DNA of 64,000 nucleotides from an uncultured Thermoleophilia bacterium (GTDB lineage: Bacteria > Actinomycetota > Thermoleophilia > UBA2241). The position numbers and the translations under genes are program-made. Positions 9,600 through 48,087 of this stretch are shown in pieces. Below the pieces are notes generated by a model. The model searched no databases, had not been told where the DNA came from, and saw nothing but the letters and a program-made list of their open reading frames with translations. The stretch lies in NCBI GenBank assembly GCA_963814545.1, contig CAWFDC010000015.1:75565-139564 (forward strand). The letters run 5' to 3'. The first letter of the stretch is position 1. Every line of letters begins with the position of its first letter.

Positions 9600-11060
9600 A
9601 TGCGCCCCCGCCTGACACTGCTCGACGACGCCGGCCTCGAGCGCCTGCGCGCGGCGACGCTCGACGTGCTCGGCAACACGGGCGTCGCCTTCAAGAGCGC
9701 CGCCGCGCGCGCCGTGCTGCGCGACGCGGGGGCGCGGGTCGACGACGAGTCCGGGGTCGTCTGGATCCCGCCCGACCTCGTCGAGGCGACCGTCGCCGCG
9801 GCGCCGCGCGAGATCGTCCTCGGGGCGCGTGACGGCGTCCACGACCTGCGCCTCGACGGCACTGCCACCCACCCGACGCACGACGGCATCGGCGCCTACG
9901 TGCTCGACCACCACACGTTCGAGCGCCGCCAGGCGACCCTCGACGACCTGCGCGCCGCCACGCTCGTGGGCGACGCTCTGGAGGAGGTCGCACTGAGCTG
10001 GTACGCGGTGAACCCGAGCGGCAGCGTCGAGCCCCGCCTCGAGGGCGTGCTCTCCGCGCACACGCTGCTCACGGCGAGCGGCAAGCACGCCCAGGGCGCG
10101 GTGCTCGTGCCGCAGGACGTGCCCTACGTCATGGAGCTGGCCGGGCTCGCCTCGCCGGGCGGGCGCTGGGACCCTGCCCGCCCGGTCTTCTCGGCGATCT
10201 ACTGCCCGGTCTCGCCGCTGCAGCACGAGGCCGACGCGCTCGAGGCGGCGATGGCGCTCGTGCGGCAGCGCGTGCCGCTGAGCGTCTACGCGCTGCCGCT
10301 CGCCGGCGCCACCGCCCCGGCGACCCTTGCCGGGGCCATCGTGCAGACCAACGCCGAGGTGCTCTCCAGCGTCGTCCTCTTCCAGCTGCTCGAGCCCGGC
10401 TGCCCGCTGGTCTACGTCGCCAACGCCGCCCTCATGGACATGCACGCCGCGAGCTACGCGGCGGCCTCGCCTGAGAGCGCGCTCATGAACCTGGCCCTTG
10501 CCGAGCTCGGTCGTTCGTACGAGCTGCCGATTCTCACCGTCGGCTTCTCGACCGACGCCTGGACGCCCGGGCCGCGGCTCGGCGCCGAGTCCGCCTTGAT
10601 GACGGCGACCGGGCTGCTCGCCGGGGCCGACATCCTCATCGGCATGGGGATGGTGAACTCGGCCAACGCCCTCTGCCTGCCCAAGCTGGTCCTCGACGCC
10701 GAGCTCTGGGGCGCGTGCCGGCGCCTGGGCCGGGGGGTCGAGCTCGACGACGAGCACCTCATGCTCGACCTCATCCAGCGCGTGGGCCCGGGCGGGCACT
10801 ACCTGTCGGCCAAGGAGACCTCGGCGACGCTGCGCGCCGGCGAGCACTGGCGCCCCGATCTCTACCGGCGCGTCGCCTACGAGACCTGGCAGGCGAGGCG
10901 CCCGCCGGCTCCGGTGGGGACCCCGGACCCGGAGTGGGACGAGGCGGTCGAACGCGTCGAGGCGCTGCTCGCCACACACACGCCGCCGCCGCTGCCCGAC
11001 GGGGCCGAGGCCGCCATGGCCGACGCCGCCGCCGCCGCGGAGCGCGAGCTGCCCGCCTGA
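9600..11060 (+). CDS. MttB-superfamily (trimethylamine methyltransferase-like) corrinoid-dependent methyltransferase, non-pyrrolysine paralog
   Basis: Uninterrupted 486-aa ORF that aligns by eye with the two other MttB-family genes here (VYCPVSPLQHEADALEAA, ATAPATLAGAIVQTNAEVLS, GPGGHYLSAKET). It has Ser where the Pyl enzyme has UAG (VGF-S-TDAW). Confidence 0.85.
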   Translation: MRPRLTLLDDAGLERLRAATLDVLGNTGVAFKSAAARAVLRDAGARVDDESGVVWIPPDLVEATVAAAPREIVLGARDGVHDLRLDGTATHPTHDGIGAYVLDHHTFERRQATLDDLRAATLVGDALEEVALSWYAVNPSGSVEPRLEGVLSAHTLLTASGKHAQGAVLVPQDVPYVMELAGLASPGGRWDPARPVFSAIYCPVSPLQHEADALEAAMALVRQRVPLSVYALPLAGATAPATLAGAIVQTNAEVLSSVVLFQLLEPGCPLVYVANAALMDMHAASYAAASPESALMNLALAELGRSYELPILTVGFSTDAWTPGPRLGAESALMTATGLLAGADILIGMGMVNSANALCLPKLVLDAELWGACRRLGRGVELDDEHLMLDLIQRVGPGGHYLSAKETSATLRAGEHWRPDLYRRVAYETWQARRPPAPVGTPDPEWDEAVERVEALLATHTPPPLPDGAEAAMADAAAAAERELPA

Positions 11061-12064: not shown

Positions 12065-13768
12065 ATGCCCTTCCATCAGCTGATCGTCGTCGGCGGCGGT
12101 CTCGCCGGGCTGCGCGCCGCGATCGAGGCGAAGCAGGCCGGCGTCGACGTCGCCATCCTCTCGCAGGTCCACCCCAGCCGCAGCCACTCGGGCGCCGCCC
12201 AGGGCGGCGTCAACGCCGCCCTCGCCAACCACCCCGACGCGGCCGACGACTCGCCGCAGAAGCACGCCTTCGACACGGTCAAGGGCGCCGACTTCCTCGC
12301 CGACCAGCAGGCGGCGCTGCAGATGACGACCGACGCCGTGTCGGCGATCTACGAGCTCGAGCATTGGGGCTGCCCGTTCAGCCGCTTCGACGACGGGCGC
12401 ATCGCCCAGCGGCCGTTCGGCGGCGCCGGCTACCCGCGCACCTGCTACGGCGCCGACAAGACCGGGCTCTACATGCTGCACACCCTCGTGCAGCAGGCCT
12501 ACCGGCTCGCAGGTCAAGATGTACATCGAGCGCTTCGTCTGCCGCCTCATCGTCGAGGACGGCGTCTGCCGCGGGGTCGTCGCCTACGACATGACCAAGG
12601 GCGGCTTCCAGGAGTTCCGCGGCGACGCCGTGGTCGTCGCCATCGGCGGCGCCGGCCGCGCGTACTCCAACACCACCAACGCCGTCATCTCGACCGGCTT
12701 CGTGTCGGCGCTCGCCTACCAGGCGGGCGTGCCTCTCAAGGACATGGAGTTCGTCCAGTTCCACCCGACGGGTCTCTACACGACGCACATCCTCATGACC
12801 GAGGGCTGTCGCGGGGAGGGGGGGTACCTCCTCAACAAGGACGGCGAGCGCTTCATGGCGCGGTACGCCCCCAAGGCGATGGAGCTCGCGCCGCGCGACA
12901 TCACCTCGCGCTCGATCCAGACCGAGATCAACGAGGGGCGCGGCATCGACGGCAAGGACTTCGTCTACCTCGACCTGCGGCACCTCGGGGCCGAGAAGCT
13001 CGCCGAGCGTCTGCCCGGCACCCGCGACCTGGCGATCCACTTCGAGGGCGTCGACCCGGTCTACGAGCCGATCCCCATCGCCCCTGCGCAGCACTACTCG
13101 ATGGGCGGCATCGACACCGACGTCGACGGCGCGACCATCATGGAGGGCCTGTACGCCGCCGGCGAGTGCGGCTGCGTGAGCGTCCACGGCGCCAATCGCC
13201 TGGGCGGCAACTCGCTGCTCGAGACCGTCGTCATCGGCCGCCGGGCCGGCGCCGCCGCCGCCCGCTTCGCGCAGGGCAAGGCGACGGGCGGCGGCGGCGA
13301 AGGGGCGGGCCGTCGCCGCCCTCGAGGCCGAGATCGCCGACCTCGCGGCGCGCGACGGCTCCGAGGACGCCTACGCGATCCGCGAGGAGATGACCGAGAC
13401 CATGCGCATCCACTTCGGCATCTACCGCGAGCGCGAGACGATGCAGCAGGGCCTCGACAAGCTGCTCGCCATGAAGGAGCGCCTCAAGACGCGCCAGGCT
13501 GCGCTTCACCGGTGGGGTCTGGAACATCGACCTGATCCGCACGATCGAGCTCGAGGGCATGCTCGACCTGACGCTGGCCACCGCCTCCGGGGCGCTCGCC
13601 CGCGAGGAGTCCCGGGGCTCGCACTCGCGCCTCGACTTCCTGACGAGAGACGACGAGCACTGGCTCAAGCACACGCTCGCCCACTACCAGCCCGACGGCG
13701 GCGCGCCGCGGCTCGACCACAAGCCGGTCGAGCTCGGCCTCTTCGAGCCCGAGGAGAGGAAGTACTGA
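12065..13768 (+). pseudogene. sdhA: Succinate dehydrogenase/fumarate reductase flavoprotein subunit; frame broken three times (probably sequence errors)
   Basis: FAD motif VVGGGLAGLRAAIEA and SHSGAAQGG (ORF 12065). FVQFHPTG, ECGCVSVHGANRLGGNSLLE (ORF 12519..13535). IHFGIYRERETM (ORF 13390). REESRGSHSRLDF (ORF 13559..13768). Confidence 0.85.
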
Positions 13769-14653: not shown

Positions 14654-15319
14654 TCAGAGACCGTCGCCGGCCGGCACGCCGGCCCCGTCGCGCGCCTGCT
14701 CGAGCGCGTGCCGGATCAGCCCGGCCCAGTAGCGCAGCACCGGCTCGACGTCGAAGGACTGGTCGGCGGCGTACTGCATGGCGAGCCCGTCGCAGACCGC
14801 GACCGTGAGCGCGGTCAGCAGGCGCAGGCGCTCGCGCAGCTCGTCGTCGGCCTCGGGCTCGAGGGCGTAGATGTCGAGCTCGCGGTACCAGTCGAAGAGC
14901 TCCGCCATGCGCGGCCAGAGGCTCGGGTCGCGGATGAGGTTGGGGAAGAGGTCGAAGAAGAGACGGTACTGGCGCAGATTGGTGACCACGCGCAGGTGCT
15001 GCTCGATGAGGATGTCGACGCGGTCGTGGTCGGCGCCGGCCTTCGAGAGCTCGCGCAGCAGGCGGACGTTCTCGTCGTGCACCACCGAGTCGGCGAGCGC
15101 CCCGACCAGCCCGGCCTTGTTGCCGAAGTGGTAGCGGATCGAGGCCTTGTTCTCGCCGGCCTCGGCGGCGATCGCCTCGAGGGTGAGGCCCTTGAAGCCC
15201 TCGCGGCCGAGCACGCGCCGCGCGGCGGCGAGGATGCGCCGCGCCGTCGGCGACAGCTCGGCCGCCGCGTCGTCGGTGACCAGGCTCGCGCCCCGGACGC
15301 GGATCCCGTTGTCGGTCAT
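14654..15319 (-). CDS. TetR/AcrR family transcriptional regulator
   Basis: N-terminal HTH GFKGLTLEAIAAEAGENKASIRYHFGNKAGL. Start chosen at MTDNGIRV (15319). Divergent from the methylamine operon. Confidence 0.85.
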   Translation of the reverse strand: MTDNGIRVRGASLVTDDAAAELSPTARRILAAARRVLGREGFKGLTLEAIAAEAGENKASIRYHFGNKAGLVGALADSVVHDENVRLLRELSKAGADHDRVDILIEQHLRVVTNLRQYRLFFDLFPNLIRDPSLWPRMAELFDWYRELDIYALEPEADDELRERLRLLTALTVAVCDGLAMQYAADQSFDVEPVLRYWAGLIRHALEQARDGAGVPAGDGL

Positions 15320-15410
15320 CGGTGGTGCTCTCCGTCGGTCGTGGCCCCGGAGCGGCCGCGCCGCAGCGGGCGGCCGTTCTCCGGGTGCAGCCTGCCCCAT
15401 CGGCGCGCTG

Positions 15411-15438
15411 TTGACAACCCCCCGGGGCGACCTAGAAT
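15411..15438 (+). promoter_or_regulatory. Near-consensus sigma-70 promoter driving the SBP-mtbB-mttB operon
   Basis: TTGACA (15411-15416) - 16 nt - TAGAAT (15433-15438) in a locally lower-GC patch, about 195 nt upstream of the SBP start codon. Confidence 0.5.
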
Positions 15439-15449
15439 TGCCCGCGAAG

Positions 15450-15465
15450 TCATCCAACCGGATGA
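15450..15465. promoter_or_regulatory. Inverted repeat, candidate TetR operator
   Basis: TCATCC-AACC-GGATGA, 12 nt downstream of the -10 element, in the tetR / operon divergent region. Confidence 0.3.
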
Positions 15466-15633
15466 ATAGACGGTCGGACGGCTTCGACAGGGGGGCCGGG
15501 CTAAGCCCGGCGGCCTCGACGAGTGCGCGGTGTGGCCATCAGCAGCGGGGCCCGGTCCGTCGTCGCGCGCCTCGCCGGGGCACGTTCCGAGGCGCCCTCG
15601 TGCGCTCGCGCGAGGGCGGGAGAAGGGGGAAGG

Positions 15634-16830
15634 ATGACTATGACCAGCACCAGCAGACCTCCGGGGGGCGGCGTGCGCGACGAGCTCGAGAGGATCACGG
15701 GGGCCGTCGCCCACGGGGAGCTCACGCGACGGCAGTTCATCGAGCGCGGCGTGGCGCTCGGCCTCTCGGTGGGGGCGCTCGGCACGGTCCTCGCCGCCTG
15801 CGGCGACGAGGAGACCGCCCAGGAGACGCCGCAGGCGTGGGACACCACGCTGCCCGAGCAGATCCACATCTACAACTGGTCCGACTACATGTCGCCCGAG
15901 TGCCTCGAGAACTTCGAGGCCGAGTACGGGGTCAAGGTCCGCGAGAGCTACTACGACGGCAACGAGTCGATGTACGCCAAGCTGCAGGCGGGGGCGACCG
16001 GGTACGACGTCATCTTCCCGACCGACATGTGGGTCACGATCCTGCGCAAGAGCGACCTGCTCCAGCCGCTCGACATGGCGCTGATCCCGAACTTCGCCAA
16101 CGTCACCCAGGAGGTCTTCCAGAAGCCGGCCTTCGACAACCCCGACACCCAGGACGGCGAGAAGTACTCGGTGCCGTACATGTTCGGCACGACCGGCTAC
16201 GCGGCGACGCTGGCCAAGGTGCCGGCGCCGCAGGACTCGTGGAACCAGCTCTGGGACCCGGCGTTCGAGCGCCAGATCTCGATGCTCAACGCCCCGCGCG
16301 AGACGCTCGGGGTCGGGCTCATCAAGCTCGGCTACTCGCCGAACACCACGAGCCAGGAGGAGCTCGACCAGGCGGTGCTGCAGCTGACCGACCAGAAGCC
16401 CCTGGTGCTCAAGTACGACTCCACGAACACGCGGCGCAGCATCGTCGAAGGTCTCGCCCTGACGCACTGCTGGGACGGCGACGTCGCTCTGGCCGTCAAG
16501 GCGATCCCGACGGAGAACGTCAGCTACGTGCTGCCCAGCGAGGGCTACATCGTGTGGGCCGACGGCATCGCGATCCCGAAGTCGGCCGCCAATCCGTACG
16601 CCGCCCACCTCTTCCTCAACTTCATGCTCGACCCGAAGAACGTGGGCGCGGCGGCCGACTACATCGGCTACCAGCCGGTCGTGACCGCGGGCATGGACTA
16701 CGTGACCAACGAGACCCAGGTCGCCATGCGCCCGAGCGACGAGGTGATCGAGGCGGGCTATCTCGCCGAGGACGTCGGTGACTTCCAGCGCAATTACGAC
16801 GACGCCTGGCGCGACGTCGTGAGCGCCTGA
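15634..16830 (+). CDS. PotD/PotF-family (polyamine-type) ABC substrate-binding lipoprotein with Tat signal; no permease or ATPase adjacent
   Basis: ATG 15634 after GGGGGAAGG. Twin-arginine signal plus lipobox TRRQFIERGVALGLSVGALGTVLAAC. PotD-like core IHIYNWSDYMSPECLENFEAEYGVKVRESYYDGNESMYAKLQAG, YDVIFPTDMWV. Confidence 0.8.
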   Translation: MTMTSTSRPPGGGVRDELERITGAVAHGELTRRQFIERGVALGLSVGALGTVLAACGDEETAQETPQAWDTTLPEQIHIYNWSDYMSPECLENFEAEYGVKVRESYYDGNESMYAKLQAGATGYDVIFPTDMWVTILRKSDLLQPLDMALIPNFANVTQEVFQKPAFDNPDTQDGEKYSVPYMFGTTGYAATLAKVPAPQDSWNQLWDPAFERQISMLNAPRETLGVGLIKLGYSPNTTSQEELDQAVLQLTDQKPLVLKYDSTNTRRSIVEGLALTHCWDGDVALAVKAIPTENVSYVLPSEGYIVWADGIAIPKSAANPYAAHLFLNFMLDPKNVGAAADYIGYQPVVTAGMDYVTNETQVAMRPSDEVIEAGYLAEDVGDFQRNYDDAWRDVVSA

Positions 16831-16969: not shown

Positions 16970-18394
16970 TTGGACGACAGGATACTGACCCGCATGGGTG
17001 ACGGCTCGCTCGTCGAGACGACGCGCGCCCAGCTGCGCGCCGACGTCGAGGACGGCACCCGGCAGGCGGCGCGCCGCGCCAAGGTGCCGCCGCTCGAGCA
17101 GGGCGAGCTCGACCACCTCGAGGACATCTTCTGCTCGAACGCGCGCTTCACCGGCGTCGACCTCGGCGACGAGGTCATCATGAGCTACGACGGGTCGGGC
17201 AACGCCGACCTCGGCTCGCGCATGACCGAGATGCTCGCCTACCAGACGCACCAGGGCGCCGACATGCTCGAGCTCTGGCACATCGACTACTCGTACAAGG
17301 CCATCAAGACGATCCTCTCGTTCGAGGCCCACGAGATGAAGATGAGCCAGCTCAACCTGACGATCCCCATGCAGTACGGGGCGATGCCCGATCTGGGCCG
17401 GTACTCGAAGCCAGACGGCCCCATCCCGAACTGGTCCGAGCTCCTGCCGCTGGGACGCATCGAGGAGGCGCGGGAGGCGCAGCTCGAGGCCGGCGAGATG
17501 GCCACGCACGACATGCTCTTCGTCGCCGATGGCATGGTCGAGGCGGGCACCGACGGCCTCGACTTCGACACCGCCGGCGCCGCCGGCGACGGCGACTTCC
17601 TCGCCACCCTCAACGCGGTCGAGAAGATCCGCGCCAAGCACCCGCACGTGGGCATCGAGGTCGGCATGGCGAGCGAGTTCGTGCTCGGCATGCACGGCGA
17701 GCTCGAGTACAGGGGCGAGCGGCTCGCCGGCATGTGGCCGCACCAGCAGGTCAAGGCGGTGGCGGCGGCCGGCGGCACGATCTTCGGGCCGGCCGTGAAC
17801 GTCAACACGCGCCAGTCGGTGGCCTGGAACGTGAGCCGCGCCTGCACCCTGGTGAAGCGCTGCTGCGAGGAGTCGCCGATCCCCGTGCACATGAACGTCG
17901 GCATGGGCGTCGGCGGCGTGCCGATGACCGCGTACCCGCCGGTCGACGCCGTCTCGCGGGTCTCGAAGGCGCTCGTCGACGTGACCCGGATGGACGGCTT
18001 GTAGGTCGGCGTGGGCGACCCTGTGGGCATGTCGCTGGCCCACACGCTCGCCTCGGGCATGGGCGGGATGCGCGCCGCCGGAGACCTTGTGGCGCGCATG
18101 CAGATGACCCGGGGGATGCGGCTCAGTGAGGCCAAGGCGTACGTCGCCGGGAGGCTCGGCGTCTCGACCCTCGACCTCGTCGACCCCGTCGTCATGCACG
18201 ACGTGCGCGCCGAGCTCGGTCTCGGGCGCATCACCGTGCAGGAGCTGACCTACGCCGACCAGCCCTACGCGATCGAGGCCAAGTTCCGGATCAGCGAGGT
18301 GCTGGACATCCCGATCAACAGCGTCGAGCGCTTCGCCGCGCGCGCCGGGCTGGGGGCGCCGCGCGTGTCCGCCGCCGGCGGCGCGGCGGGCTGA
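16970..18394 (+). CDS. mtbB: Dimethylamine:corrinoid methyltransferase MtbB with in-frame UAG (18002-18004), predicted pyrrolysine
   Basis: ORFs 16970..18004 and 18011..18394 are in the same frame, separated only by TAG. Sequence is MtbB-like throughout (LTRMGDGSLV, HIDYSYKAIK, FDTAGAAGDGDF, GMWPHQQ, NVGMGVGGVPM, ...[41 protein letters not shown]). TTG start after GGGAGAGGGG. Confidence 0.9.
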
Positions 18395-18413
18395 GAGCCC
18401 CGGAGGTGCTTGA

Positions 18414-19883
18414 GTGAAACGCAATCTGCACGCAGGACACCGGCGCAGCGGGGGGTTCAGCCTCAACGTCTTCACCGAGGCCGAGATGGACTCGATCCAC
18501 CTCGCGACCCTCGAAGTGCTCGAGCGCACCGGCGTCTTCGTCGAGGCCGACGAGGCGATCGACATCTTCACCGACGCCGGCTGCCGCGTCGACCGCGAGC
18601 GGCGCGTGGTCCGGATCCCGCCGCACCTGGTCGAGGACGCGATCCGCTCGGCGCCGAGCCGCTTCACGCTCTGCGGGCGCGACCCGAAGAACGACTTCGT
18701 CCTGGAGCCGGGTCGCGTCGCCTTCACCAACTTCAGCGAGGGCATCCGCCTGATCGACCCGTTCAGCGGCGAGTACCGCGACCCGACCAAGAAGGACATC
18801 GGTGACATCGCCCGGCTCAACGACTACCTGAGCGAGATGGACACGCACGAGATCTCGGTCGGGGCCAGCGACGCGCCCGCCGAGACCATCTCCGTGCACA
18901 ACAGCGAGCAGCAGCTCCTCAACACGACCAAGCCGATCGGCATCGGGCCGCTCTCGCGCATGGAGAGCATCGCCGTCTTCCGCATGTGCGCCGAGATCGT
19001 CGGCGGCGAGGACGCGCTGCGCGAGCGCCCCATCGTCTACAACGGCGTCTGCCCGGTGAGCCCGCTCAAGCTGCCGCACGAGGTCACCGAGGTGATCATC
19101 GAGACGGCGCGCTGGGGCCTGCCCTGCAACATCCTCTCGATGGCCATGGCCGGGGGCTCGTCGCCCGTGACCCTGGCCGGCACGATGGTCACGCACAACG
19201 CCGAGGTCCTCGCCGGCATCACGCTCTCGCAGCTCGCCGAGCGCGGCGTCCCGGTGATCTACGGCAGCTCGACCACGGCCATGGACCTGAAGCTCGCCGC
19301 GGCCAGCGTCGGTACGCCGGAGCTCGCCATGGTCAGCGCCGCGGTGGCGCAGATGGCGCGCCGCTACCTCCTCCCGAGCTTCGTGGCGGGGTTGTAGGCT
19401 GACTCCAAGGTCGGTGACGCGCAGACCGGTCACGAGAAGACCCTCACCGGGTTGCTGGCAGCGTTGGCAGGGGCCAACCTGATCTACGGGGCGGGGATGA
19501 TCGAATCGGGCGTCACCTTCGACTGCGGGCAGTTCGTCATGGACAACGAGTTCGCGCGCATGATCAAGCACAGCGTCATGGGCATCCCGGTCGACGACGA
19601 GACCCTGGCGGTGGAGGACATCGCCATGGTCGGGCCGTTCGGGGACTTCCTCAGCCTCGACGCGACGCTCAAGCACATGCGCACCCTCAGCCAGCCTGCC
19701 CACCTCGACCGCCGTGTGCGCGAGGACTGGCAAGACCGCGGCGCCACCGACCTGTATGCTCGCTGTACGGCGGAGGCGCGGCAGATCATCGAGGAGTACC
19801 GGCCTGAACCGCTGCCGGACGACGTGGCGCGGCGTATCCACGCCATCGTCGAGGAGACCGACCGGGCGGCGGGTGTGGCCTGA
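18414..19883 (+). CDS. mttB: Trimethylamine:corrinoid methyltransferase MttB with in-frame UAG (19395-19397), predicted pyrrolysine
   Basis: ORFs 18414..19397 and 19452..19883 share a frame, and the gap has no other stop. MttB-like throughout (FSLNVFTEAEMDSIHLATLEVLERTGV, NILSMAMAGGSSPVTLAGTMVTHNAEVLAG, ...[47 protein letters not shown]). GTG start 5 nt after GGAGGTG. Confidence 0.9.
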
Positions 19884-20010: not shown

Positions 20011-20646
20011 GTGAGCGACCAGTACGGACCACTGAAGCAGGCCGTGATCGACGGCAACGCCGACCTGACGAACGCGCTGGTCCAGGCGGCGCTGGCCCAG
20101 GGGCAGGCGCCCCGCGACATCCTCGAGGGTGCCCTGCTGCCCGGTATGGAGGTCGTCGGCCAGCGCATGAAGAGCGGCGAGTGCTTCATCCCCGAGGTGC
20201 TGCTCTCGGCGCGGGTCATGCAGGGCGCGCTCGACACCCTGCGGCCCCTCCTCGGCGAGGGCGAGGGCGGCGGCCTCGGCACCGTGGTCATCGGCACGGT
20301 CGAGGGCGACCTGCACGACATCGGCAAGAACCTCGTCGGCATGATGCTGTCGGGCGCCGGCTTCGAGGTCGTCAACCTCGGCACCGGGATCACCCCGGCG
20401 CAGTTCGTCGCCGCCGCCGAGGAGCACGGGGCGGCGATCGTCGGCATGAGCGCTCTGCTCACGACGACGATCCCGCGCATGAAGGAGACCATCGACGCCC
20501 TCGCCGCCGCCGGGCTCAGGGACAAGGTCAAGGTCATGATCGGCGGCGCCCCCGTCACCCAGGCCTTCGCCGACGAGATCGGCGCCGACGGTTACGGCGC
20601 CAACGCCGGCGCCGCCGTCGACCGTGCCAAGGCCCTGGTGAAGTGA
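20011..20646 (+). CDS. Corrinoid (cobalamin-binding) methyl-carrier protein, MttC/MtbC type
   Basis: B12-binding DxHxxG motif GTVEGDLHDIGKNLVG, then GMSALLTTT and MIGGAPVT, with an N-terminal helical cap domain. GTG start after AAGGAGACAGG. Confidence 0.9.
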   Translation: MSDQYGPLKQAVIDGNADLTNALVQAALAQGQAPRDILEGALLPGMEVVGQRMKSGECFIPEVLLSARVMQGALDTLRPLLGEGEGGGLGTVVIGTVEGDLHDIGKNLVGMMLSGAGFEVVNLGTGITPAQFVAAAEEHGAAIVGMSALLTTTIPRMKETIDALAAAGLRDKVKVMIGGAPVTQAFADEIGADGYGANAGAAVDRAKALVK

Positions 20647-22103
20647 TGCCGAAGGCCCCCGCCCCGGGGCGCCTGGCGCCCCGCGTCAGCATGCTCACCG
20701 ACGACGCGTTCGCCTACCTGCACGGGCAGACGCTCGAGCTGCTGGCGACCGTCGGCGTACGCTTCGCGAGCCCCCGTGCCCGCGCGCTGCTGCGCGAGGC
20801 GGGCGCCCGGGTCGACGACGAGAGCCTGGTGGTCCGTCTCCCGGCCGAGCTTGTCGAGCGGGCCGTGGCCGCGGCGCCGCACGACGTGCTGCTGGCTGCC
20901 CGCGACGGCGAGCACGACGCCCTGCTCGACCGCTCGCGTACCTTCGTGGGCCACGACGGCATGGGCGCCATGACGATGGACCACCGCACCGGCGAGCGGC
21001 GGCCGTCCACCGACCAGGACCTCTACGAGGCCTGCGTCGTCGCCGACGCCCTCGACGAGCTCGGCTTCTGCTGGTACGTCGCGACGCCCAACGACGCCGT
21101 GCCCGCCGTGCAGTCGCTGCAGGGCATCGTCACCATGCTGCGCGGCTCGGGCAAACACGCGCAGGGCGATCTGAGCGATCCTCTCCTCGTGCCCTACGCG
21201 CTGGAGGCGGCGGCGGCGGCGAGCCCCGGCGGCGTGTGGGACCCGGCGAGGCCGGTCTTCTCGATCGTGTACTGCCCGGTCTCGCCGCTGCAGCACGACG
21301 CCGAGGCCCTCGACGCCGCCATGCTGCTCGCCGAGCAGGGTGTGCCGATCGTCGTCTACAGCCTCGCGCTCGCGGGGGCGACGGCGCCGGTCACGCTCGC
21401 CGGCACCCTGGTGCAGACCAACGCCGAGGTCCTCAGCGGCCTCGTCGCCCTGCAGCTCGCGGCGCCGGGCAGCCCCTTCGTCTACGTCGGCAACTCGAGC
21501 ATCCTGGACATGAAGACCTGCACCTTCGGCGCCTGCGGGCCCGAGGCGCTGCTCTTCAATCTGGCGCTGACCGAGATGGGGCACCGCTACGGCTTCCCCG
21601 TGCTCTCCGGCGGGCTGTCGAGCGACGCCAAGGAGCTCTGCATGCAGTCGGGGTACGAGGGCGGCACGATGGCGCTCCTCAGCACTCTCGCCCGCGCCGA
21701 CCTCTTCGTCGGCGTCGGCATGCTCGACTCGGCGCAGTTCCTCTACCTGCCGAAGATGGTGCTCGACGCCGAGGTCGTCGCCCAGTGCGCTCACGTGGCG
21801 CGCGGCGTGCAGCTCGACGACGAGAGCGTGATGCTCGAGGTGTCGGCGCGGATCGGCCCGGGCGGCCACTTCCTCGGCGCGCGCGAGACGAGCTCGTTCC
21901 TGCGCCGGGGCGAGCACCACCAGCTCAAGGTCTTCCAGCGCGGCTCGTACGAGGCGTGGCGGGCGCACCCGGTCCCCGAGGCCGAGCGGGCGACGGCCGT
22001 GGTCGACGAGATCCTCGCCGCGCACCGGCCGTCGGCCTTGCCCCCGGGCGGCGAGGAGCGCATGGCCGCCGCCGTGGCCGCCGCCGCGGAGAGGCGCGAC
22101 TAG
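20646..22103 (+). CDS. MttB-superfamily methyltransferase, non-pyrrolysine paralog (quaternary-amine type candidate), translationally coupled to the corrinoid protein
   Basis: ATG overlaps the upstream TGA. 485 aa uninterrupted, paralogous to 9600..11060 (VYCPVSPLQHDAEALDAA, ATAPVTLAGTLVQTNAEVLSG, GPGGHFLGARET). Ser at the Pyl-equivalent position (GGL-S-SDAK). Ends in TAG. Confidence 0.85.
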   Translation: MPKAPAPGRLAPRVSMLTDDAFAYLHGQTLELLATVGVRFASPRARALLREAGARVDDESLVVRLPAELVERAVAAAPHDVLLAARDGEHDALLDRSRTFVGHDGMGAMTMDHRTGERRPSTDQDLYEACVVADALDELGFCWYVATPNDAVPAVQSLQGIVTMLRGSGKHAQGDLSDPLLVPYALEAAAAASPGGVWDPARPVFSIVYCPVSPLQHDAEALDAAMLLAEQGVPIVVYSLALAGATAPVTLAGTLVQTNAEVLSGLVALQLAAPGSPFVYVGNSSILDMKTCTFGACGPEALLFNLALTEMGHRYGFPVLSGGLSSDAKELCMQSGYEGGTMALLSTLARADLFVGVGMLDSAQFLYLPKMVLDAEVVAQCAHVARGVQLDDESVMLEVSARIGPGGHFLGARETSSFLRRGEHHQLKVFQRGSYEAWRAHPVPEAERATAVVDEILAAHRPSALPPGGEERMAAAVAAAAERRD

Positions 22104-44252: not shown

Positions 44253-45116
44253 TTACGCCATCACCGCGTGCGCGTCGATGAGGTGCTTGCTGACGCCGAT
44301 CGTCTTCTCGTCGAGGCCGATGGCGCGGCCGACGAGCTGGCTGAGGAAGAGCACGGGCACGCCGGCCCACGAGCTGTCCTTGCGCGCGATCTCGCTCTGG
44401 CGGCCGTCGAGGTTGACCTGGCAGAGCGGGCAGGCGACGGCGATCGCCTCGGCGCCGCAGTCGCGCGCGTCGCTCACGATGCGCCCCACGAGCCCGTCGA
44501 CGATCTCCTGCTCGGTGAGCGCCAGCGCGGCGCCGCAGCAGTCGGTCTTGTAGTTCCAGTCGACCGCCTCGCAGCCGAGGGCCTCGACGACGGCGTCCAT
44601 GTGCGTCGGGTACTCGGGGTCCTCGGCGAGGGTGACCTCGGGCGGGCGTGTGAGCAGGCAGCCGTAGTAGCAGGCCACCTTGAGGCCCTTGAACGGGCGC
44701 TTCACCTTGGCGGCGAGCGCCTCGAGGCCGACCGCGTCGTGATAGACGTCGACCAGGTTCTGCACGGTGACGCCGCCCTCGTAGCCGCGCCCGACGACCG
44801 AGCGCACGTCGTCGGCGACCGCCGGGTCGCGGGCGACCTCGTGCGCGCCGGTCTTGAAACGGCTGAAGCAGGCGGCGCAGGGCACGGCCACGGCGTCGAG
44901 CTTCAGGTCCTTCTCGACCTTGACCAGCTCGTTCACTGGCAGCGCCGTGGCGAGCAGGCGGTTGATCGAGTGCGCCGCGGTGTTGCCGCAGCACTCCCAG
45001 CCGGGGATCTCGACGAGGTCGAGGTCGAGCGTCCGCGCCGTGGCCCTGAAGCTGGCGTCGAACTCGCCCGAGGTGCCGTGCAGCGAGCAGCCGGGGTAGT
45101 AGGCGATACTCGTCAC
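44253..45116 (-). CDS. hdrB: Heterodisulfide reductase subunit B-like (two CCG domains)
   Basis: YYPGCSLHG, WECCGNTAAH, VPCAACF, YYGCLLTRP, TDCCGAALAL and VACPLCQVNLD. The GTG start overlaps the hdrC stop (GTGA). TAA stop. Confidence 0.9.
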   Translation of the reverse strand: MTSIAYYPGCSLHGTSGEFDASFRATARTLDLDLVEIPGWECCGNTAAHSINRLLATALPVNELVKVEKDLKLDAVAVPCAACFSRFKTGAHEVARDPAVADDVRSVVGRGYEGGVTVQNLVDVYHDAVGLEALAAKVKRPFKGLKVACYYGCLLTRPPEVTLAEDPEYPTHMDAVVEALGCEAVDWNYKTDCCGAALALTEQEIVDGLVGRIVSDARDCGAEAIAVACPLCQVNLDGRQSEIARKDSSWAGVPVLFLSQLVGRAIGLDEKTIGVSKHLIDAHAVMA

Positions 45117-45763
45117 GACGCACCTCCGCCCTCGTCGCCGGACGGCGCGGCCGCGCCCTTGCCGGACGGTGGGGCCGCGTCCTTGCCGGCCCGCGCCGCG
45201 CTCTTGGCCTCGCGGGCCCGGGTGAGACTCTCGGCGGTCTTGACCATGCGCTTCATGGCGTCGGTGTCGCCCTTCTTGAGCGTGGGGTTGATCTTGCCCT
45301 TGAGCAGCATCTTGGGCCCGAGCGAGAGCCACTCGAGGGCGCCCTTGGGCCGGCGCAGGGCGTCGCGCGCGATGAGCTCGACCTCCCACATGCGGCCCCA
45401 GCGGACGAACGAGTTGTAGTTGAGCTTGAGCATGGCCGCCGACGGGGCGTCCGGGTGCACCTTGCCCTCGCGCCAGGCGATGATCTTGAGCTCGTCCATG
45501 ATCGCCGCGATGTCGATGCCCTGCGGGCAGCGCGTGGTGCAGGTCTGGCACCCGGTGCACAGCCAGATGAACTTGTCGTCGAAGATCATGTCGTACTGTC
45601 CGAGCTGGACGGCACGCATGATCTGCGCCGGGTGCATGCCGGCGTGCTCGGCCACCGGGCACCCGGCCGTGCAGCGCTTGCACTGGTAGCAGAGGTAGGG
45701 GTTCTCGGCGCAGCCGGCCCCCACCTTGGTGGCGAGGACGCCGCTCGGTGTGCAGGTCGTCAT
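45113..45763 (-). CDS. hdrC: Heterodisulfide reductase subunit C-like (2x[4Fe-4S])
   Basis: CYQCKRCTAGCP and CTGCQTCTTRCP. ATG 45763 lies 5 nt after AGGAGGTG. Lys/Ala/Gly-rich C-terminal tail. Confidence 0.9.
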   Translation of the reverse strand: MTTCTPSGVLATKVGAGCAENPYLCYQCKRCTAGCPVAEHAGMHPAQIMRAVQLGQYDMIFDDKFIWLCTGCQTCTTRCPQGIDIAAIMDELKIIAWREGKVHPDAPSAAMLKLNYNSFVRWGRMWEVELIARDALRRPKGALEWLSLGPKMLLKGKINPTLKKGDTDAMKRMVKTAESLTRAREAKSAARAGKDAAPPSGKGAAAPSGDEGGGAS

Positions 45764-45772
45764 CCCCACCTC

Positions 45773-46717
45773 CTAGGCCACTGCCGGCCGCGGCATGAGG
45801 CCCGCGGCCTCGACGATCTCGGGCACCGCGGACTCCCACTCGATGGCCATGATGTGGACGCCGGCGACACCCTCGATCTCGGTGAACTCCTTGATCATCT
45901 CGACGGCGATCTTCTTGCCCTCGGCCTGCTGCGGGGCGCCCTTCTCGGGGACGGCCATGCGATCGACGATGTCCTGCGGGACGTCGATGCCGGGAACGAA
46001 CTTCTGCATGTAGCGCGCCCCGCCGACGCCCTTCAGCGGCGTGATGCCGGCGAGGATCTTGATCTCCTTGTGCAGGCCCAGGGCGCGCACCTCCTCCATC
46101 CACTTCTTGAACTTGGGGACGTTGAAGATGCACTGGGTCTGCATGAAGTCGGCGCCGGCCTCGATCTTCTTCTTGAGGCGCAGGGCGCGGAGGTCGAAGG
46201 GGTCGGCGAAGGGGTTCTCGGCGCAGCCGATGTAGAGCGGCGGCGCGACCGTCATCTCCTCGCCGCACTGGAACTTCTTCTCGTCGCGCATGTCCTTGTA
46301 CATCTTGATGAGGTTGATGGCGTCGAGGTCGTGCACGCCCCTGGCCTCGGGGTGGTTGCCGAAGCTCAGGTGGTCGCCGGTGAGGCAGAGGATGTTCTTG
46401 ATGCCCAGTGTGGCGGCGCCGAGGATGTCGGCCTGCATCGCCAGACGGTTGCGGTCGCGGCAGGTCATCTGCATGATCGCCTCGAGCCCGTTCTGCTGGG
46501 CGGTGTGGCCCGACGCCAGGGAGCACACGCGGACCACGGCGGTCTGGTTGTCGGTGATGTTGACGGCGTCGACGTAGCCCTTGAGGATCTTGGCCTTCTC
46601 CTCGATGACGGTGACGTCGGCGCCCTTGGGCGGGCCGCACTCGCCGGTGACGGCGAACTTGCCTTCGGCGAGGATCTTCTCGAGGTTGGAGCCGGCCTTG
46701 TATCCGTTGTCCCTCAT
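45773..46717 (-). CDS. metF: Methylenetetrahydrofolate reductase, acetogen-type MetF
   Basis: KFAVTGECGPPKGAD, VDAVNITDNQ, MTCRDRN, ILCLTGDH, FMQTQCIFN. The start overlaps the metV stop (ATGA). Stop is TAG. Confidence 0.9.
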   Translation of the reverse strand: MRDNGYKAGSNLEKILAEGKFAVTGECGPPKGADVTVIEEKAKILKGYVDAVNITDNQTAVVRVCSLASGHTAQQNGLEAIMQMTCRDRNRLAMQADILGAATLGIKNILCLTGDHLSFGNHPEARGVHDLDAINLIKMYKDMRDEKKFQCGEEMTVAPPLYIGCAENPFADPFDLRALRLKKKIEAGADFMQTQCIFNVPKFKKWMEEVRALGLHKEIKILAGITPLKGVGGARYMQKFVPGIDVPQDIVDRMAVPEKGAPQQAEGKKIAVEMIKEFTEIEGVAGVHIMAIEWESAVPEIVEAAGLMPRPAVA

Positions 46718-47397
46718 ACCGGCTTCGCCTCCTCGCGCACCATCTTGCGGGGGCCGCCGGAGCTGCTCTTGCTCCAGTTCTTCGGCGGCCGGTCGGTGAA
46801 CATGAGCTCTTCGCGGCCCTGTGCCTTGAGGCGCTCCCAGATGAGGGCCCAGGCGCACTCGATCTCTTCCTTGTCGGGCCCGGTGACTTCGCACAGGCCG
46901 TCGTGCGAACCGCCGCAAGGGCCGTTCATGAGGCTCTTGCTGCAGCGCACGACGGGGCAGATGCCGCCGGTCAGGCCGATGCGGCACTCGCCGCAGGCGA
47001 CGCAGCGCTCGAGCCACACGGCGTGCTCCTGCGGCATGCCCAGCATGTTGGTGTCGACGGCCGGCACGACGAGCCTGGGGGCGAACTTCTCGGCCATGCT
47101 CTGGATGCCGATGCCGCAGGCCATGCTGAGGACGACGTCGGCCTCCTCGACCTTGGCGGCGATCATGTCGAGGTACTCCCACTCGCACTGCCTGATGGCG
47201 GCGGTGTGCTCGACCTCGATCTCGCGGCCGTCGGCCTGTGCCTTCATGCGCAGCTCGCTGGCGAGGATCTCGGCCTCTTTCTCGCCTCCGGTGAGGCAGA
47301 TGGCGACGCAGGTGTCGCAGCCGGCGACGAGGATCTTCTTGTGTCCGGCGACGAGGTCCAGGATCTCGTCGAACGGCTTGCGTTCAGCGGTGATCAT
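46714..47397 (-). CDS. metV: MetV, zinc-ribbon/MTHFR-C-terminal-like small subunit of methylene-THF reductase
   Basis: ILVAGCDTCVAICLTGG, SMACGIGIQ and CVACGECRIGLTGGICPVVRCSKSLMNGPCGG. ATGA overlap with mvhD. Confidence 0.85.
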   Translation of the reverse strand: MITAERKPFDEILDLVAGHKKILVAGCDTCVAICLTGGEKEAEILASELRMKAQADGREIEVEHTAAIRQCEWEYLDMIAAKVEEADVVLSMACGIGIQSMAEKFAPRLVVPAVDTNMLGMPQEHAVWLERCVACGECRIGLTGGICPVVRCSKSLMNGPCGGSHDGLCEVTGPDKEEIECAWALIWERLKAQGREELMFTDRPPKNWSKSSSGGPRKMVREEAKPV

Positions 47398-48086
47398 TCG
47401 GCGGGTCCCTTCTCGGTGGTGGCGGAGGCGGTGTCGGGCGCCGGCGCGGCGGCGCCGGCCGGCGCCCCCTCGGGCATGGCCACGTCGCCGGCGGCCTCAC
47501 GGGCCGCGGCATGCGGCGACACGTCGTGGCGCCGCAGCGGGTTCGGCCCGAGGGCCTTGATCCGGTCGGTGAACTCGGTCGCGACGCGGGCGAACTCGGC
47601 GCCCATCGCCGACGACATGTTGTACATCTCCACGCGCTCGGGCTCGATGCCCACCTCGGCGAGGAGGGCCTTGACGTGGTCGACGCGCTTGCGCGCCCAG
47701 AGGTTGCCCTTGAGGTAGTGACACTCACCCTCGAGGCAGCCGGCGGCGTAGACGCCGTCGGCGCCGGCCTCGATCGCGCGCATGAGGTGGATGACCTCGA
47801 GCTTGCCCGTGCAGGGCAGCTTGATCATGCGGATGTTCGACGGGTATTGCAGGCGCATGCTGCCCGCCAGGTCGGCGGCGGCGTAGGCGCAGTAGTGACA
47901 GGCGAACACGATGATCTCGGGCTCGAAGTCGGGGTCGACGGGCTTCTTCGGCGCCTCGGTCTCGGCGGCCTCGGCGCCCTCGGGTGCGTCGGCGACGGCG
48001 GTCGGGGCGGAGGCCCCCGCCGTCGCCTGAGCCGTCGTGGCTGCCTGCGCCGTCGTGGCCGCGGTCACCTTCGGCTCCTCGGCCAT
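47394..48086 (-). CDS. mvhD: MvhD/FlpD-like (methyl-viologen-reducing hydrogenase delta subunit) electron-transfer protein with Ala/Thr-rich N- and C-terminal extensions
   Basis: IIVFACHYCAYAAADLAG, IKLPCTGKLEVIHLMRAIEAGADGVYAAGCLEGECHY. ATG 1 nt after the hdrA stop, preceded by GGAGGTGA. Confidence 0.85.
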   Translation of the reverse strand: MAEEPKVTAATTAQAATTAQATAGASAPTAVADAPEGAEAAETEAPKKPVDPDFEPEIIVFACHYCAYAAADLAGSMRLQYPSNIRMIKLPCTGKLEVIHLMRAIEAGADGVYAAGCLEGECHYLKGNLWARKRVDHVKALLAEVGIEPERVEMYNMSSAMGAEFARVATEFTDRIKALGPNPLRRHDVSPHAAAREAAGDVAMPEGAPAGAAAPAPDTASATTEKGPAE

Positions 48087-48087
48087 C

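What the first reader, a model, noticed from the sequence alone, without database searches (positions are those of the whole stretch)
18002..18004. In-frame UAG at the pyrrolysine position of a bacterial dimethylamine methyltransferase (MtbB)
The ORFs 16970..18004 and 18011..18394 are in one frame (18011-16970 = 1041, divisible by 3), and TAG is the only interruption. Read through, they give a 474-residue MtbB with ...VDVTRMDGL-[UAG][33 protein letters not shown]. From memory, Methanosarcina MtbB has pyrrolysine in the same context (...DGI-O-IGVGDPMGMP...[15 protein letters not shown]...). Conservation continues at full strength on both sides, so this looks like a recoded codon rather than a truncation. 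Pyl-dependent methylamine use is known mostly from methanogenic archaea and a limited set of Firmicutes and Deltaproteobacteria. A roughly 70% GC, Actinomycetota-like genome would be an unusual host.
Basis: partly seen in the sequence, partly recalled or inferred. Interest (0 to 1): 0.9.

Follow-up and report, generated by a model that had tools for sequence, protein, structure and literature searches.

The report
Pyrrolysine codon in actinobacterial dimethylamine methyltransferase
The in-frame TAG is the conserved pyrrolysine codon of a dimethylamine methyltransferase gene, and the trimethylamine methyltransferase gene next to it has one too; the host is a high-GC soil actinobacterium from a group where this has already been reported briefly, so it is a real but ordinary case.

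Summary
TAG at 18002-18004 is the only interruption of a 474-codon mtbB (16970-18394). It aligns with the pyrrolysine (Pyl) UAG of Rfam's mtbB model. All 33 MtbB homologues I fetched carry TAG, never TGA or TAA, at that column. Two independent assemblies of the same species (98.3% nt identity) carry it too, and the protein is equally conserved on both sides of it.

The adjacent mttB (18414-19883) has an in-frame TAG at 19395-19397, aligned exactly with Pyl334 of the solved Methanosarcina barkeri MttB structure. A corrinoid protein, an amine-type binding protein, a TetR regulator and two non-Pyl MttB paralogues complete the locus.

No pylT, pylS or pylBCD lies in the 64 kb, and I could not link a pyl locus to this species' genome. 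Relatives labelled Thermoleophilia or Actinomycetota (66-73% GC) carry a conserved pylSc-pylSn-pylT-pylDCB locus, in two cases on the same contig as a TAG-containing mtbB.

Ellenbogen et al. 2023 reported Actinobacteriota MAGs expressing Pyl-encoding mttB and mtbB, and Guo et al. 2022 listed PylRS in two Actinobacteria. Verdict: real, a new member of a known kind, modest interest.

The parts
16970..18394 (+). mtbB, dimethylamine:corrinoid methyltransferase. 474 codons with one in-frame UAG. TTG start preceded by a GGAGAGG-like ribosome-binding site.
   Evidence: Pfam PF09505 3.9e-174, one stretch covering residues 7-456. NCBIfam TIGR02368 441.7 bits against a cutoff of 369.1. Translation.
18002..18004 (+). 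UAG read as the pyrrolysine codon of mtbB (codon 345).
   Evidence: Aligned to the UAG at position 1 of Rfam RF02509. TAG in 33 of 33 homologues at this column. Same TAG in L089, L090 and L001.
18002..18101 (+). Match to Rfam PYLIS_2 (mtbB). Best read as coding-sequence conservation, not a demonstrated RNA structure.
   Evidence: 77.1 bits against a gathering score of 36. Folding z-score is only -1.14, and several model pairs are non-canonical.
18414..19883 (+). mttB, trimethylamine:corrinoid methyltransferase. 489 codons with one in-frame UAG.
   Evidence: Pfam PF06253 7.6e-98. NCBIfam TIGR02369 686.6 bits against a cutoff of 525. PDB 7xcl/7xcm, 6e-120.
19395..19397 (+). UAG read as the pyrrolysine codon of mttB (codon 328).
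   Evidence: Aligns with residue X334 (Pyl) of the M. barkeri MttB structure 7xcl and with position 1 of Rfam RF02510. TAG in 11 of 12 homologues.
19395..19494 (+). Match to Rfam PYLIS_3 (mttB). Sequence-level match.
   Evidence: 76.2 bits against a gathering score of 38. Folding z-score -0.11.
20011..20646 (+). Corrinoid (B12-binding) protein, the presumed methyl acceptor for MtbB and MttB.
   Evidence: Pfam B12-binding_2 plus B12-binding. Nearest NCBIfam models are MtgC, MtbC and pyl_corrinoid, all below their cutoffs (193.8 against 215.3).
20643..22103 (+). Non-Pyl MttB-superfamily paralogue, with Ser at the Pyl column.
   Evidence: Pfam MTTB 2.6e-72. TIGR02369 367 bits, below the cutoff of 525. 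Alignment A2.
9600..11060 (+). Second non-Pyl MttB-superfamily paralogue, with Ser at the Pyl column.
   Evidence: Pfam MTTB 3.8e-71. TIGR02369 349 bits, below the cutoff of 525. Alignment A2.
15523..16830 (+). Solute-binding protein of the PotD/PotF (amine) type, directly upstream of mtbB. Start codon uncertain (15523 or 15673).
   Evidence: Pfam SBP_bac_8/6/1. NCBIfam PotD and PotF below cutoff. Position conserved in L001 and in a JGI contig.
14654..15457 (-). Divergent TetR-family regulator, a candidate regulator of the operon. Start codon uncertain.
   Evidence: Pfam TetR_N. Same position in L001, and next to mtbB in L008 and L093.
44253..52431 (-). hdrB-like, hdrC-like, metF, metV, mvhD and a 1447-aa hdrA-like gene. 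A candidate sink or source for methyl-tetrahydrofolate. Context only; the link to the mtb/mtt genes is inferred.
   Evidence: Pfam CCG, Fer4, MTHFR, DUF5981 (MetV), FlpD and Pyr_redox_2/Fer4.

Best explanation
The TAG at 18002-18004 is the pyrrolysine codon of a functional dimethylamine:corrinoid methyltransferase gene (mtbB). The neighbouring trimethylamine methyltransferase gene (mttB) has its own Pyl codon at 19395-19397.

Shown:
- Both genes are intact apart from the TAG.
- In each gene the TAG sits in the Pyl column of characterised archaeal enzymes.
- The codon is invariably TAG in relatives, and the protein is equally constrained on both sides of it.
- Related Thermoleophilia and Actinomycetota genomes carry pylT(CUA), split pylSn and pylSc, and pylBCD.

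Inferred:
- In this organism a tRNA-Pyl(CUA), charged by PylSn/PylSc with Pyl made by PylBCD from lysine, competes with release factor at these two UAGs and gives full-length enzymes. The pyl genes would lie outside the 64-kb window.
- MtbB and MttB methylate the Co(I) corrinoid protein encoded at 20011-20646. By analogy with other bacterial corrinoid methyltransferase systems, a methyltransferase not found in the window then passes the methyl group to tetrahydrofolate.
- The MetFV-Hdr-MvhD-type methylene-THF reductase cluster at 44253-52431 handles that methyl-THF.
- UAG also remains an ordinary terminator here (8 of about 55 genes), so recoding is probably partial or condition-dependent, as described for other Pyl-using bacteria.
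For: Sequence and family:
- One frame with a single TAG.
- Pfam and NCBIfam equivalog models are passed by both read-through proteins.
- The Rfam mtbB and mttB models start with UAG at position 1, and that position lands on the two TAGs.
- The mttB TAG aligns with X334 (Pyl) of PDB 7xcl.

Conservation:
- Nearly all of the 120 best MtbB clusters are 328-351 aa, because gene callers stop at the same TAG.
- TAG is present in 33 of 33 MtbB and 11 of 12 MttB homologues, never TGA or TAA. TGA is the usual stop in this window (45 of 55).
- Against the syntenic relative L001, amino-acid identity upstream/downstream of the TAG is 74.1/74.2% for mtbB and 85.0/83.9% for mttB. dN/dS is 0.51/0.32 and 0.22/0.22.
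- Two independent assemblies at 98.3% and 98.2% nt identity carry the same TAG.

Machinery in the lineage:
- L003 (68% GC) has pylSc, pylSn, pylD, pylC and pylB, all above NCBIfam cutoffs, plus tRNA-Pyl(CUA).
- 47 of the 80 best GTDB PylSc loci are labelled Thermoleophilia, Actinomycetota or Actinomycetes.
- 27 of 49 such loci scanned contain tRNA-Pyl. At least 21 contain the full protein set.
- L008 has pylSc next to a TAG-containing mtbB that is 65% identical to the window's. L026 has mtbB (60% identical), pylSc, pylSn, pylT and pylDCB within 18 kb.

Literature: Actinobacteriota MAGs express Pyl-encoding mttB and mtbB (PMC10805028).
Against: - No pylT, pylS or pylBCD lies in the 64 kb, by ARAGORN, Rfam, Pfam on about 55 ORFs, and tblastn with actinobacterial Pyl proteins.
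- I could not place a pyl locus in the same genome as the window, or in the genome of its closest long-contig relative L001.
- UAG is not avoided as a terminator, so read-through is not genome-wide.
- Downstream of the TAG, recent divergence (window against L089) shows 2 synonymous and 2 non-synonymous changes. That is too few to say anything.
- There is no expression or mass-spectrometry evidence for this sequence.
Confidence: 0.88

Rival explanations
1. Relic genes. This particular genome has lost the pyl machinery, so mtbB and mttB are translated only to the UAG and are decaying or non-functional.
For: No pyl gene or tRNA lies in the window. The pyl locus could not be tied to this species. 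Another gene in the same neighbourhood, sdhA, is broken by three frameshifts, so gene decay or assembly errors do occur here.
Against: Both genes are free of frameshifts and extra stops. GC3 downstream of the TAGs is 0.90-0.95, like coding sequence. Conservation downstream equals conservation upstream against L001. The whole operon is syntenic and intact in L001, in a JGI contig and in L089. In most relatives too, the pyl genes lie more than 10 kb from the mtb genes.
Confidence: 0.06
2. Split gene. The 344-aa and roughly 127-aa pieces are translated separately (a GTG lies at 18011) and assemble into an active enzyme without Pyl.
For: A GTG lies two codons after the TAG. Gene callers annotate two ORFs in every relative.
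Against: If the stop were only a terminator, TGA would be expected often, since it ends 45 of 55 genes here. The codon is TAG in 33 of 33 homologues spanning 44-99% identity. The two pieces are always in frame with no spacer. No Shine-Dalgarno-like motif precedes 18011. The same column is the Pyl codon in the Rfam mtbB seed model.
Confidence: 0.02
3. Assembly or consensus error. The TAG is a miscalled sense codon.
For: The window shows three frameshifts in sdhA that intact relatives lack, so local errors are conceivable.
Against: The identical TAG and flanks occur in NCBI RPQB01000332.1 and in JGI 3300027818, at 98.3% and 98.2% nt identity without gaps. They also occur in every more distant homologue.
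Confidence: 0.01
4. Read-through of UAG with a canonical amino acid, by a near-cognate or other suppressor tRNA rather than Pyl.
For: No direct evidence identifies the inserted residue. One MttB copy in L068 has TGG (Trp) at the Pyl column, so a sense codon there is not impossible in this superfamily.
Against: The lineage carries dedicated pylT(CUA), PylS and PylBCD. By established knowledge, Pyl is the residue at this position in characterised MttB (7xcl) and MtbB. No suppressor tRNA lies in the window.
Confidence: 0.03

Closest known systems
Methanosarcina barkeri MtbB and MttB, the Pyl-dependent di- and trimethylamine:corrinoid methyltransferases (MttB structure PDB 7xcl)
   Same: Same protein families above curated cutoffs. 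UAG at the same column: Rfam models and Pyl334 of 7xcl. An adjacent cognate corrinoid protein gene.
   Different: The host is bacterial, with 72% GC. There is no coenzyme M pathway, so the methyl group presumably goes to tetrahydrofolate (inferred). The PYLIS-like stretch shows no thermodynamic signal of structure. No MtbB structure exists for comparison.
Bacterial Pyl systems with split PylSn plus PylSc, as in Desulfitobacterium hafniense (PylSc structures 2zni, 3dsq) and Acetohalobium arabaticum
   Same: In the actinobacterial relatives, pylSc and pylSn are separate genes alongside pylT(CUA) and pylBCD. As I recall for those bacteria, UAG stays in use as a terminator.
   Different: The gene order in the Thermoleophilia loci is pylSc (its start overlaps the end of a cell-wall amidase gene), then pylSn, pylT and pylDCB on the opposite strand, with unrelated genes in between. 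In the window, L001 and L093 this locus is not linked to the methyltransferase operon.
Actinobacteriota MAGs of Stordalen Mire expressing Pyl-encoding mttB and mtbB (Ellenbogen et al. 2023, PMC10805028), and the two Actinobacteria with PylRS in Guo et al. 2022 (PMC9630628)
   Same: Same phylum and the same pair of genes recognised by truncation at the amber codon. The supplement places RBG-16-64-13 as an order of Thermoleophilia. PylSc loci from Stordalen MAGs fen_672 and palsa_647 are among the hits.
   Different: Those papers give one sentence or a count. They do not describe the pyl locus, pylT or the operon. I could not establish whether the window belongs to one of their MAGs.
Non-Pyl MttB superfamily methyltransferases, such as the glycine betaine enzyme MtgB (PDB 2qne, 9yce)
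   Same: Two paralogues in the window (9600-11060 and 20643-22103) belong here. They match Pfam MTTB, fall below the TIGR02369 cutoff, and have Ser at the Pyl column.
   Different: The mttB at 18414-19883 is not of this kind. It passes the Pyl-type equivalog cutoff and has UAG at the Pyl column.

Membership tests
Pyl-dependent dimethylamine:corrinoid methyltransferase MtbB (Pfam PF09505, NCBIfam TIGR02368) | Full-length match above the curated family cutoff | tested here: met
   PF09505 580 bits (cutoff 25), residues 7-456 in one stretch. TIGR02368 441.7 bits (cutoff 369.1).
Pyl-dependent dimethylamine:corrinoid methyltransferase MtbB (Pfam PF09505, NCBIfam TIGR02368) | A single in-frame UAG at the conserved Pyl column | tested here: met
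   UAG aligned to position 1 of Rfam RF02509, whose consensus encodes O-IGVGDPMGMP.... TAG at this column in 33 of 33 homologues.
Pyl-dependent dimethylamine:corrinoid methyltransferase MtbB (Pfam PF09505, NCBIfam TIGR02368) | A cognate corrinoid protein encoded nearby | tested here: met
   B12-binding_2 plus B12-binding protein at 20011-20646. It stays below the NCBIfam pyl_corrinoid subfamily cutoff (193.8 against 215.3), so its specificity is unassigned.
Pyl-dependent dimethylamine:corrinoid methyltransferase MtbB (Pfam PF09505, NCBIfam TIGR02368) | Pyl actually incorporated, and DMA-dependent corrinoid methylation | not testable with these tools
   Needs mass spectrometry and an enzyme assay.
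Pyl-dependent trimethylamine:corrinoid methyltransferase MttB (NCBIfam TIGR02369) | Match above the equivalog cutoff, which separates it from non-Pyl MttB paralogues | tested here: met
   686.6 bits against a cutoff of 525. The two paralogues score 367 and 349.
Pyl-dependent trimethylamine:corrinoid methyltransferase MttB (NCBIfam TIGR02369) | UAG at the position of Pyl334 of M. barkeri MttB | tested here: met
   Codon 328 aligns with X334 of 7xcl and K334 of 7xcm, and with position 1 of Rfam RF02510.
Pyrrolysine genetic-code expansion system (pylT, pylS or pylSn+pylSc, pylBCD) | tRNA-Pyl with CUA anticodon in the window | tested here: not met
   ARAGORN finds no tRNA in 64 kb. Rfam reports only the two PYLIS hits.
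Pyrrolysine genetic-code expansion system (pylT, pylS or pylSn+pylSc, pylBCD) | PylS and PylBCD genes in the window | tested here: not met
   No Pfam hit among about 55 ORFs. No tblastn hit with actinobacterial PylSc, PylSn, PylB, PylC or PylD at E <= 1e-3.
Pyrrolysine genetic-code expansion system (pylT, pylS or pylSn+pylSc, pylBCD) | The same genes elsewhere in the source genome | not testable with these tools
   Only 64 kb is given. The window's proteins are not on record by exact match. Attempts to link via relatives failed.
Pyrrolysine genetic-code expansion system (pylT, pylS or pylSn+pylSc, pylBCD) | The complete system present in the lineage and physically linked to a TAG-containing mtbB in relatives | tested here: met
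   L003: all five proteins above NCBIfam cutoffs, plus pylT. At least 21 high-GC MAG loci have the full set. pylT in 27 of 49 loci. L008 and L026 carry mtbB and pylSc on one contig.
PYLIS cis-acting RNA element (Rfam RF02509, RF02510) | Score above the gathering threshold | tested here: met
   77.1 against 36 and 76.2 against 38 bits.
PYLIS cis-acting RNA element (Rfam RF02509, RF02510) | A stable conserved secondary structure | tested here: not met
   Minimum free energy is no better than dinucleotide shuffles (z -1.14 and -0.11). Several model pairs are non-canonical in the alignment. The match is explained by coding conservation.

The most novel reading that the evidence does not exclude
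High-GC soil and peat Thermoleophilia may form a large, essentially undescribed clade of Pyl-decoding bacteria, with these features:
- a conserved pylSc-pylSn-pylT-pylDCB locus of their own, with pylSc overlapping the end of a cell-wall amidase gene;
- that locus usually unlinked from the mtbB/mttB operon;
- UAG kept as a frequent terminator, so recoding would be conditional;
- di- and trimethylamine demethylation coupled to a MetFV-Hdr-MvhD methylene-THF reductase.

They would then be overlooked competitors of methylotrophic methanogens for methylamines.
Probability: 0.5. Interest if true: 0.5.

Novelty: new member of a known kind. Interest (0 to 1): 0.3.

Why it matters
The result confirms that standard gene calling splits two key methylamine-utilisation genes in this organism, so pipelines will under-report its metabolism. 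It also adds a well-resolved operon to the brief published reports of Pyl-type mtbB and mttB in Actinobacteriota. These are the amine-binding protein, mtbB(UAG), mttB(UAG), the corrinoid protein and a non-Pyl MttB, with a divergent TetR regulator. Methylamines are non-competitive methanogenic substrates. Abundant soil Thermoleophilia that consume them through Pyl enzymes would bear on methane budgets in wetlands and permafrost. Mechanistically nothing is new: this is the textbook Pyl case in another host.

Tried and rejected
1. Pyl genes in the window. ARAGORN, Rfam, Pfam on about 55 GC3-supported ORFs, and tblastn with actinobacterial PylSc, PylSn, PylB, PylC and PylD found none.

2. The window's own contig. 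An exact look-up of the corrinoid protein found nothing on record.

3. Same-genome link between mtbB and pylS.
   - No contig length was shared between the MtbB and PylSc hit lists.
   - Cluster accession numbers were mostly missing.
   - ENA sample ids of PylSc contigs (ERZ25039459, -488, -527) do not match those of the closest MtbB contigs (ERZ25039462, -545, -503).
   - The NCBI PylSc proteins on short contigs come from metagenome assemblies, not from GCA_003820435.1.
   - Only L008 and L026 gave same-contig links.

4. One GTDB scan for both proteins. A chimeric PylSc+MtbB alignment was submitted, but the tool drew both search patterns from the PylSc half. MtbB loci were therefore recovered only where they lie next to pylSc.

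5. Shared synteny between the window and the PylSc loci. None apart from weak corrinoid-protein hits.

6. A functional PYLIS hairpin. Not supported.

7. Other UAG read-through candidates in the window. Seven of eight TAG-terminated genes have non-coding-like extensions. The eighth, metF, simply abuts the next gene in the same frame.

8. An MtbB structure in the PDB. None exists.
Full report
**Observation.** The window reads ...GACGGCTTG TAG GTCGGCGTGGGC..., with TAG at 18002-18004. One frame from 16970 to the TGA at 18392-18394 gives 474 codons with that single stop. At about 72% GC long open frames are common, so frame continuity alone proves little. GC3 is 0.98 before and 0.95 after the TAG. 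Pfam PF09505 (Dimeth_Pyl) matches residues 7-456 as one stretch at 580 bits. The NCBIfam equivalog TIGR02368 is passed, 441.7 bits against a cutoff of 369.1.

The next gene, 18414-19883, is an MttB homologue with one in-frame TAG at 19395-19397 (...SFVAGL*ADSKVGDAQTGHEK...). Read through, it passes the Pyl-type trimethylamine methyltransferase equivalog TIGR02369, 686.6 bits against 525. Against the PDB it matches M. barkeri MttB (7xcl/7xcm, about 1e-119). Codon 328, the TAG, falls exactly on residue 334, which is 'X' (the Pyl residue) in 7xcl and 'K' in 7xcm.

**Is the mtbB TAG in the Pyl column?** No MtbB structure exists. Rfam's mtbB and mttB 'PYLIS' models both begin with the UAG at position 1. 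They hit 18002-18101 (77.1 bits, gathering 36) and 19395-19494 (76.2 bits, gathering 38), each from position 1 to 100. The window encodes [11 protein letters not shown]...[15 protein letters not shown].

These hits should not be read as evidence for an RNA structure. The 100-nt stretches fold no better than dinucleotide shuffles (z = -1.14 and -0.11). Several model pairs are also non-canonical here. The matches reflect coding conservation.

**Conservation of the codon and of the downstream part.**
- A search of 5.8 billion proteins returned 2697 hits. Nearly all of the 120 best clusters are 328-351 aa (mostly 344) and cover about 72% of the query. Gene callers everywhere stop at the same TAG.
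It is TAG in 11 of 12 MttB homologues; the exception is a TGG in one copy in L068. TGA ends 45 of about 55 genes in the window, so the exclusive use of TAG argues against a split gene with an ordinary terminator.
- L001 is a syntenic relative on a 1.24-Mb ENA/NCBI contig. It has the same gene order from sdhCDAB through tetR, the binding protein, mtbB, mttB, the corrinoid protein, mttB2, eamA, macro, ocd, DUF1786 and GT2 to nrdR-RNR. It has both TAGs.
- Against L001, amino-acid identity upstream/downstream of the TAG is 74.1/74.2% for mtbB and 85.0/83.9% for mttB. dN/dS is 0.51/0.32 and 0.22/0.22. The part after the TAG is as constrained as the part before it.

**Sequence error excluded.** NCBI contig RPQB01000332.1 belongs to GCA_003820435.1, and its MtbB protein RPI29251.1 is labelled 'Actinomycetota'. 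It is 98.3% identical to window 17093-19000. A JGI contig from sample 3300027818 is 98.2% identical to window 17093-18203. Neither alignment has gaps, and both carry the identical TAG and flanks.

**The locus.**
- Upstream lie a divergent TetR regulator (14654-15457, minus strand) and a PotD/PotF-like solute-binding protein (15523-16830).
- Downstream lie a corrinoid protein (20011-20646, B12-binding_2 plus B12-binding) and a non-Pyl MttB paralogue (20643-22103).
- A second non-Pyl paralogue is at 9600-11060. Both paralogues fall below the TIGR02369 cutoff (367 and 349 bits) and have Ser at the Pyl column.
- I found no methylcorrinoid:THF or CoM methyltransferase and no RamA-type activase in the window.
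- The window also carries a metF-metV-mvhD-hdrA-like-hdrBC-like cluster (44253-52431, minus strand). Its connection to methylamine use is my inference from how bacterial corrinoid methyltransferase systems feed methyl-THF.

**Pyl machinery.** The window has no tRNA at all. It has no PylS or PylBCD by Pfam, nor by tblastn with actinobacterial Pyl proteins.

To find the lineage's machinery I seeded a search with the M. mazei PylRS catalytic domain. I ran it against the 50%-identity representative library and picked representatives with a high-GC amino-acid composition.
- One of these, P0284, lies on 68%-GC contigs L003-L006. The order there is an amidase gene, pylSc, pylSn (opposite strand), a Germane-domain gene, then pylT, pylD, pylC and pylB.
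- ARAGORN calls the tRNA as tRNA-Pyl(CUA). All five proteins pass their NCBIfam cutoffs.
- P0284 has more than 120 clusters of relatives at 63-78% identity. Some are named by NCBI 'pyrrolysine--tRNA(Pyl) ligase large subunit [Thermoleophilia bacterium]' or '[Actinobacteria bacterium]'.
- A scan of GTDB species representatives found at least 587 PylSc stretches. Of the best 80 hits to the actinobacterial query, 47 carry Thermoleophilia, Actinomycetota or Actinomycetes labels. They include Danish soil MAGs (MFD) and the Stordalen Mire MAGs fen_672 and palsa_647.
- 27 of 49 such loci contain tRNA-Pyl(CUA). The 73-nt gene has 93% mean column identity, with compensatory changes in the anticodon and T stems. 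At least 21 loci hold the full PylSc/Sn/D/C/B set.

**Link between that machinery and the window's genes.** In L008 (1.14-Mb contig) pylSc sits directly beside a TAG-containing mtbB that is 65% identical to the window's, with tetR and eamA next to it. In L026, a Thermoleophilia MAG, an mtbB (60% identical), pylSc, pylSn, pylT and pylDCB all lie within 18 kb. MtbB proteins from other phyla are at most 57% identical.

So the window's MtbB groups with actinobacterial MtbBs that are physically linked to pyl genes. I could not show a pyl locus in the window's own species or in L001's genome. Contig-length matching, accession look-ups and all 12 contig look-ups gave no match. In L001 and in L093, which has several TAG-containing mtbB copies, no pyl gene lies within 10 kb of mtbB. 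An unlinked arrangement is therefore normal in this group.

**UAG usage.** Eight of about 55 complete genes in the window end in TAG. Seven have extensions that look non-coding (GC2 at or above GC3). The eighth, metF at 45773, is followed in the same frame by the next gene's ribosome-binding site and start codon. UAG is therefore both a terminator and, in two genes, a Pyl codon. As I recall from the literature, other Pyl-using bacteria are described the same way. How the choice is made here is unknown.

**Comparison with what is known.** The mechanism is the textbook Pyl case. The host group is not new to the literature.
- Guo et al. 2022 counted PylRS in two Actinobacteria among 81 bacterial genomes (PMC9630628).
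- Ellenbogen et al. [quoted passage not shown] Their supplement places RBG-16-64-13 as an order of Thermoleophilia.
- A search for 'Thermoleophilia' with 'pyrrolysine' returned only one paper, which I did not read.
- The pyl locus organisation and the breadth of Pyl in this class appear undescribed in the papers searched.

**Verdict.** It is a new member of a known kind, a Pyl-type mtbB/mttB operon in a probable Thermoleophilia actinobacterium, not a new phenomenon. The one open point is the presence of the pyl genes in this very genome, which needs the rest of the assembly.

Noticed in passing
window 19395-19397 (within mttB 18414-19883): A second in-frame TAG, in the adjacent trimethylamine methyltransferase gene. 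It aligns with Pyl334 of the solved M. barkeri MttB (7xcl) and was not mentioned in the finding.
   Followed up: yes
window 12065-13768: sdhA is broken into four pieces in frames 2, 3, 1 and 2 by three +1 shifts near 12509, 13307 and 13492. sdhC, sdhD and sdhB are intact, and sdhA is intact (567-569 aa) in L001 and in a JGI contig whose MtbB falls in the same 90%-identity cluster as P0001. This is either a pseudogene or local assembly errors.
   Followed up: partly
window 45767-45775 (minus strand; metF 45773-46717 and the next gene 45113-45769): metF ends in TAG, and the downstream hdrC-like gene follows in the same frame after one codon (TAG-GAG-GTG-GGC-ATG). In a UAG-suppressing cell, read-through would give a MetF-HdrC-like fusion. 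Probably a coincidence of operon packing.
   Followed up: partly
window 44253-52431 (minus strand): A MetF-MetV-MvhD cluster with a 1447-aa HdrA-like protein and HdrB/HdrC-like proteins, in a 72%-GC actinobacterium. From memory, this arrangement resembles the methylene-THF reductase complexes described in acetogens.
   Followed up: partly
L003 8919-10855; also L008, L094, L095: In the Thermoleophilia-type loci pylSc starts 4 nt before the stop of an N-acetylmuramoyl-L-alanine amidase gene. pylSn, pylT and pylDCB lie on the opposite strand, separated from pylSc by unrelated genes (Germane-domain, radical SAM, corrinoid protein). From memory, this differs from the compact pylTSBCD clusters of Firmicutes.
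   Followed up: partly
L068 3249-4703: One of two MttB copies in 'Candidatus Acetocimmeria pyornia' has TGG (Trp) instead of TAG at the Pyl column. It is 58% identical to the window's MttB.
   Followed up: no
L093 4636-11386 and 19813-20412: A relative (ENA ERZ25039503, 318-kb contig) carries three or four TAG-split mtbB copies and a TAG-split mttB within 20 kb.
   Followed up: no
L057, L060, L061: A second, distinct actinobacterial Pyl arrangement at 64-67% GC. The order is pylT, pylSn, pylSc, pylB, pylC on one strand, directly after an mtbB that is 50-51% identical to the window's. PylSc is only 47-48% identical to the Thermoleophilia type.
   Followed up: no
L029 (CAVTJJ010000002.1): A MAG labelled 'candidate division Zixibacteria' carries a Thermoleophilia-type pyl locus (PylSc 69% identical to the query P0284, 65% GC). 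Possibly a mis-binned contig or a mislabelled MAG.
   Followed up: no
window 27620-28717 (minus strand) and 26528-27514: A DUF1786 protein and an ornithine cyclodeaminase-family protein keep their place a few kb downstream of the mtb/mtt genes in the window, in L001 and in a JGI contig. No function or link to methylamine use could be assigned.
   Followed up: no
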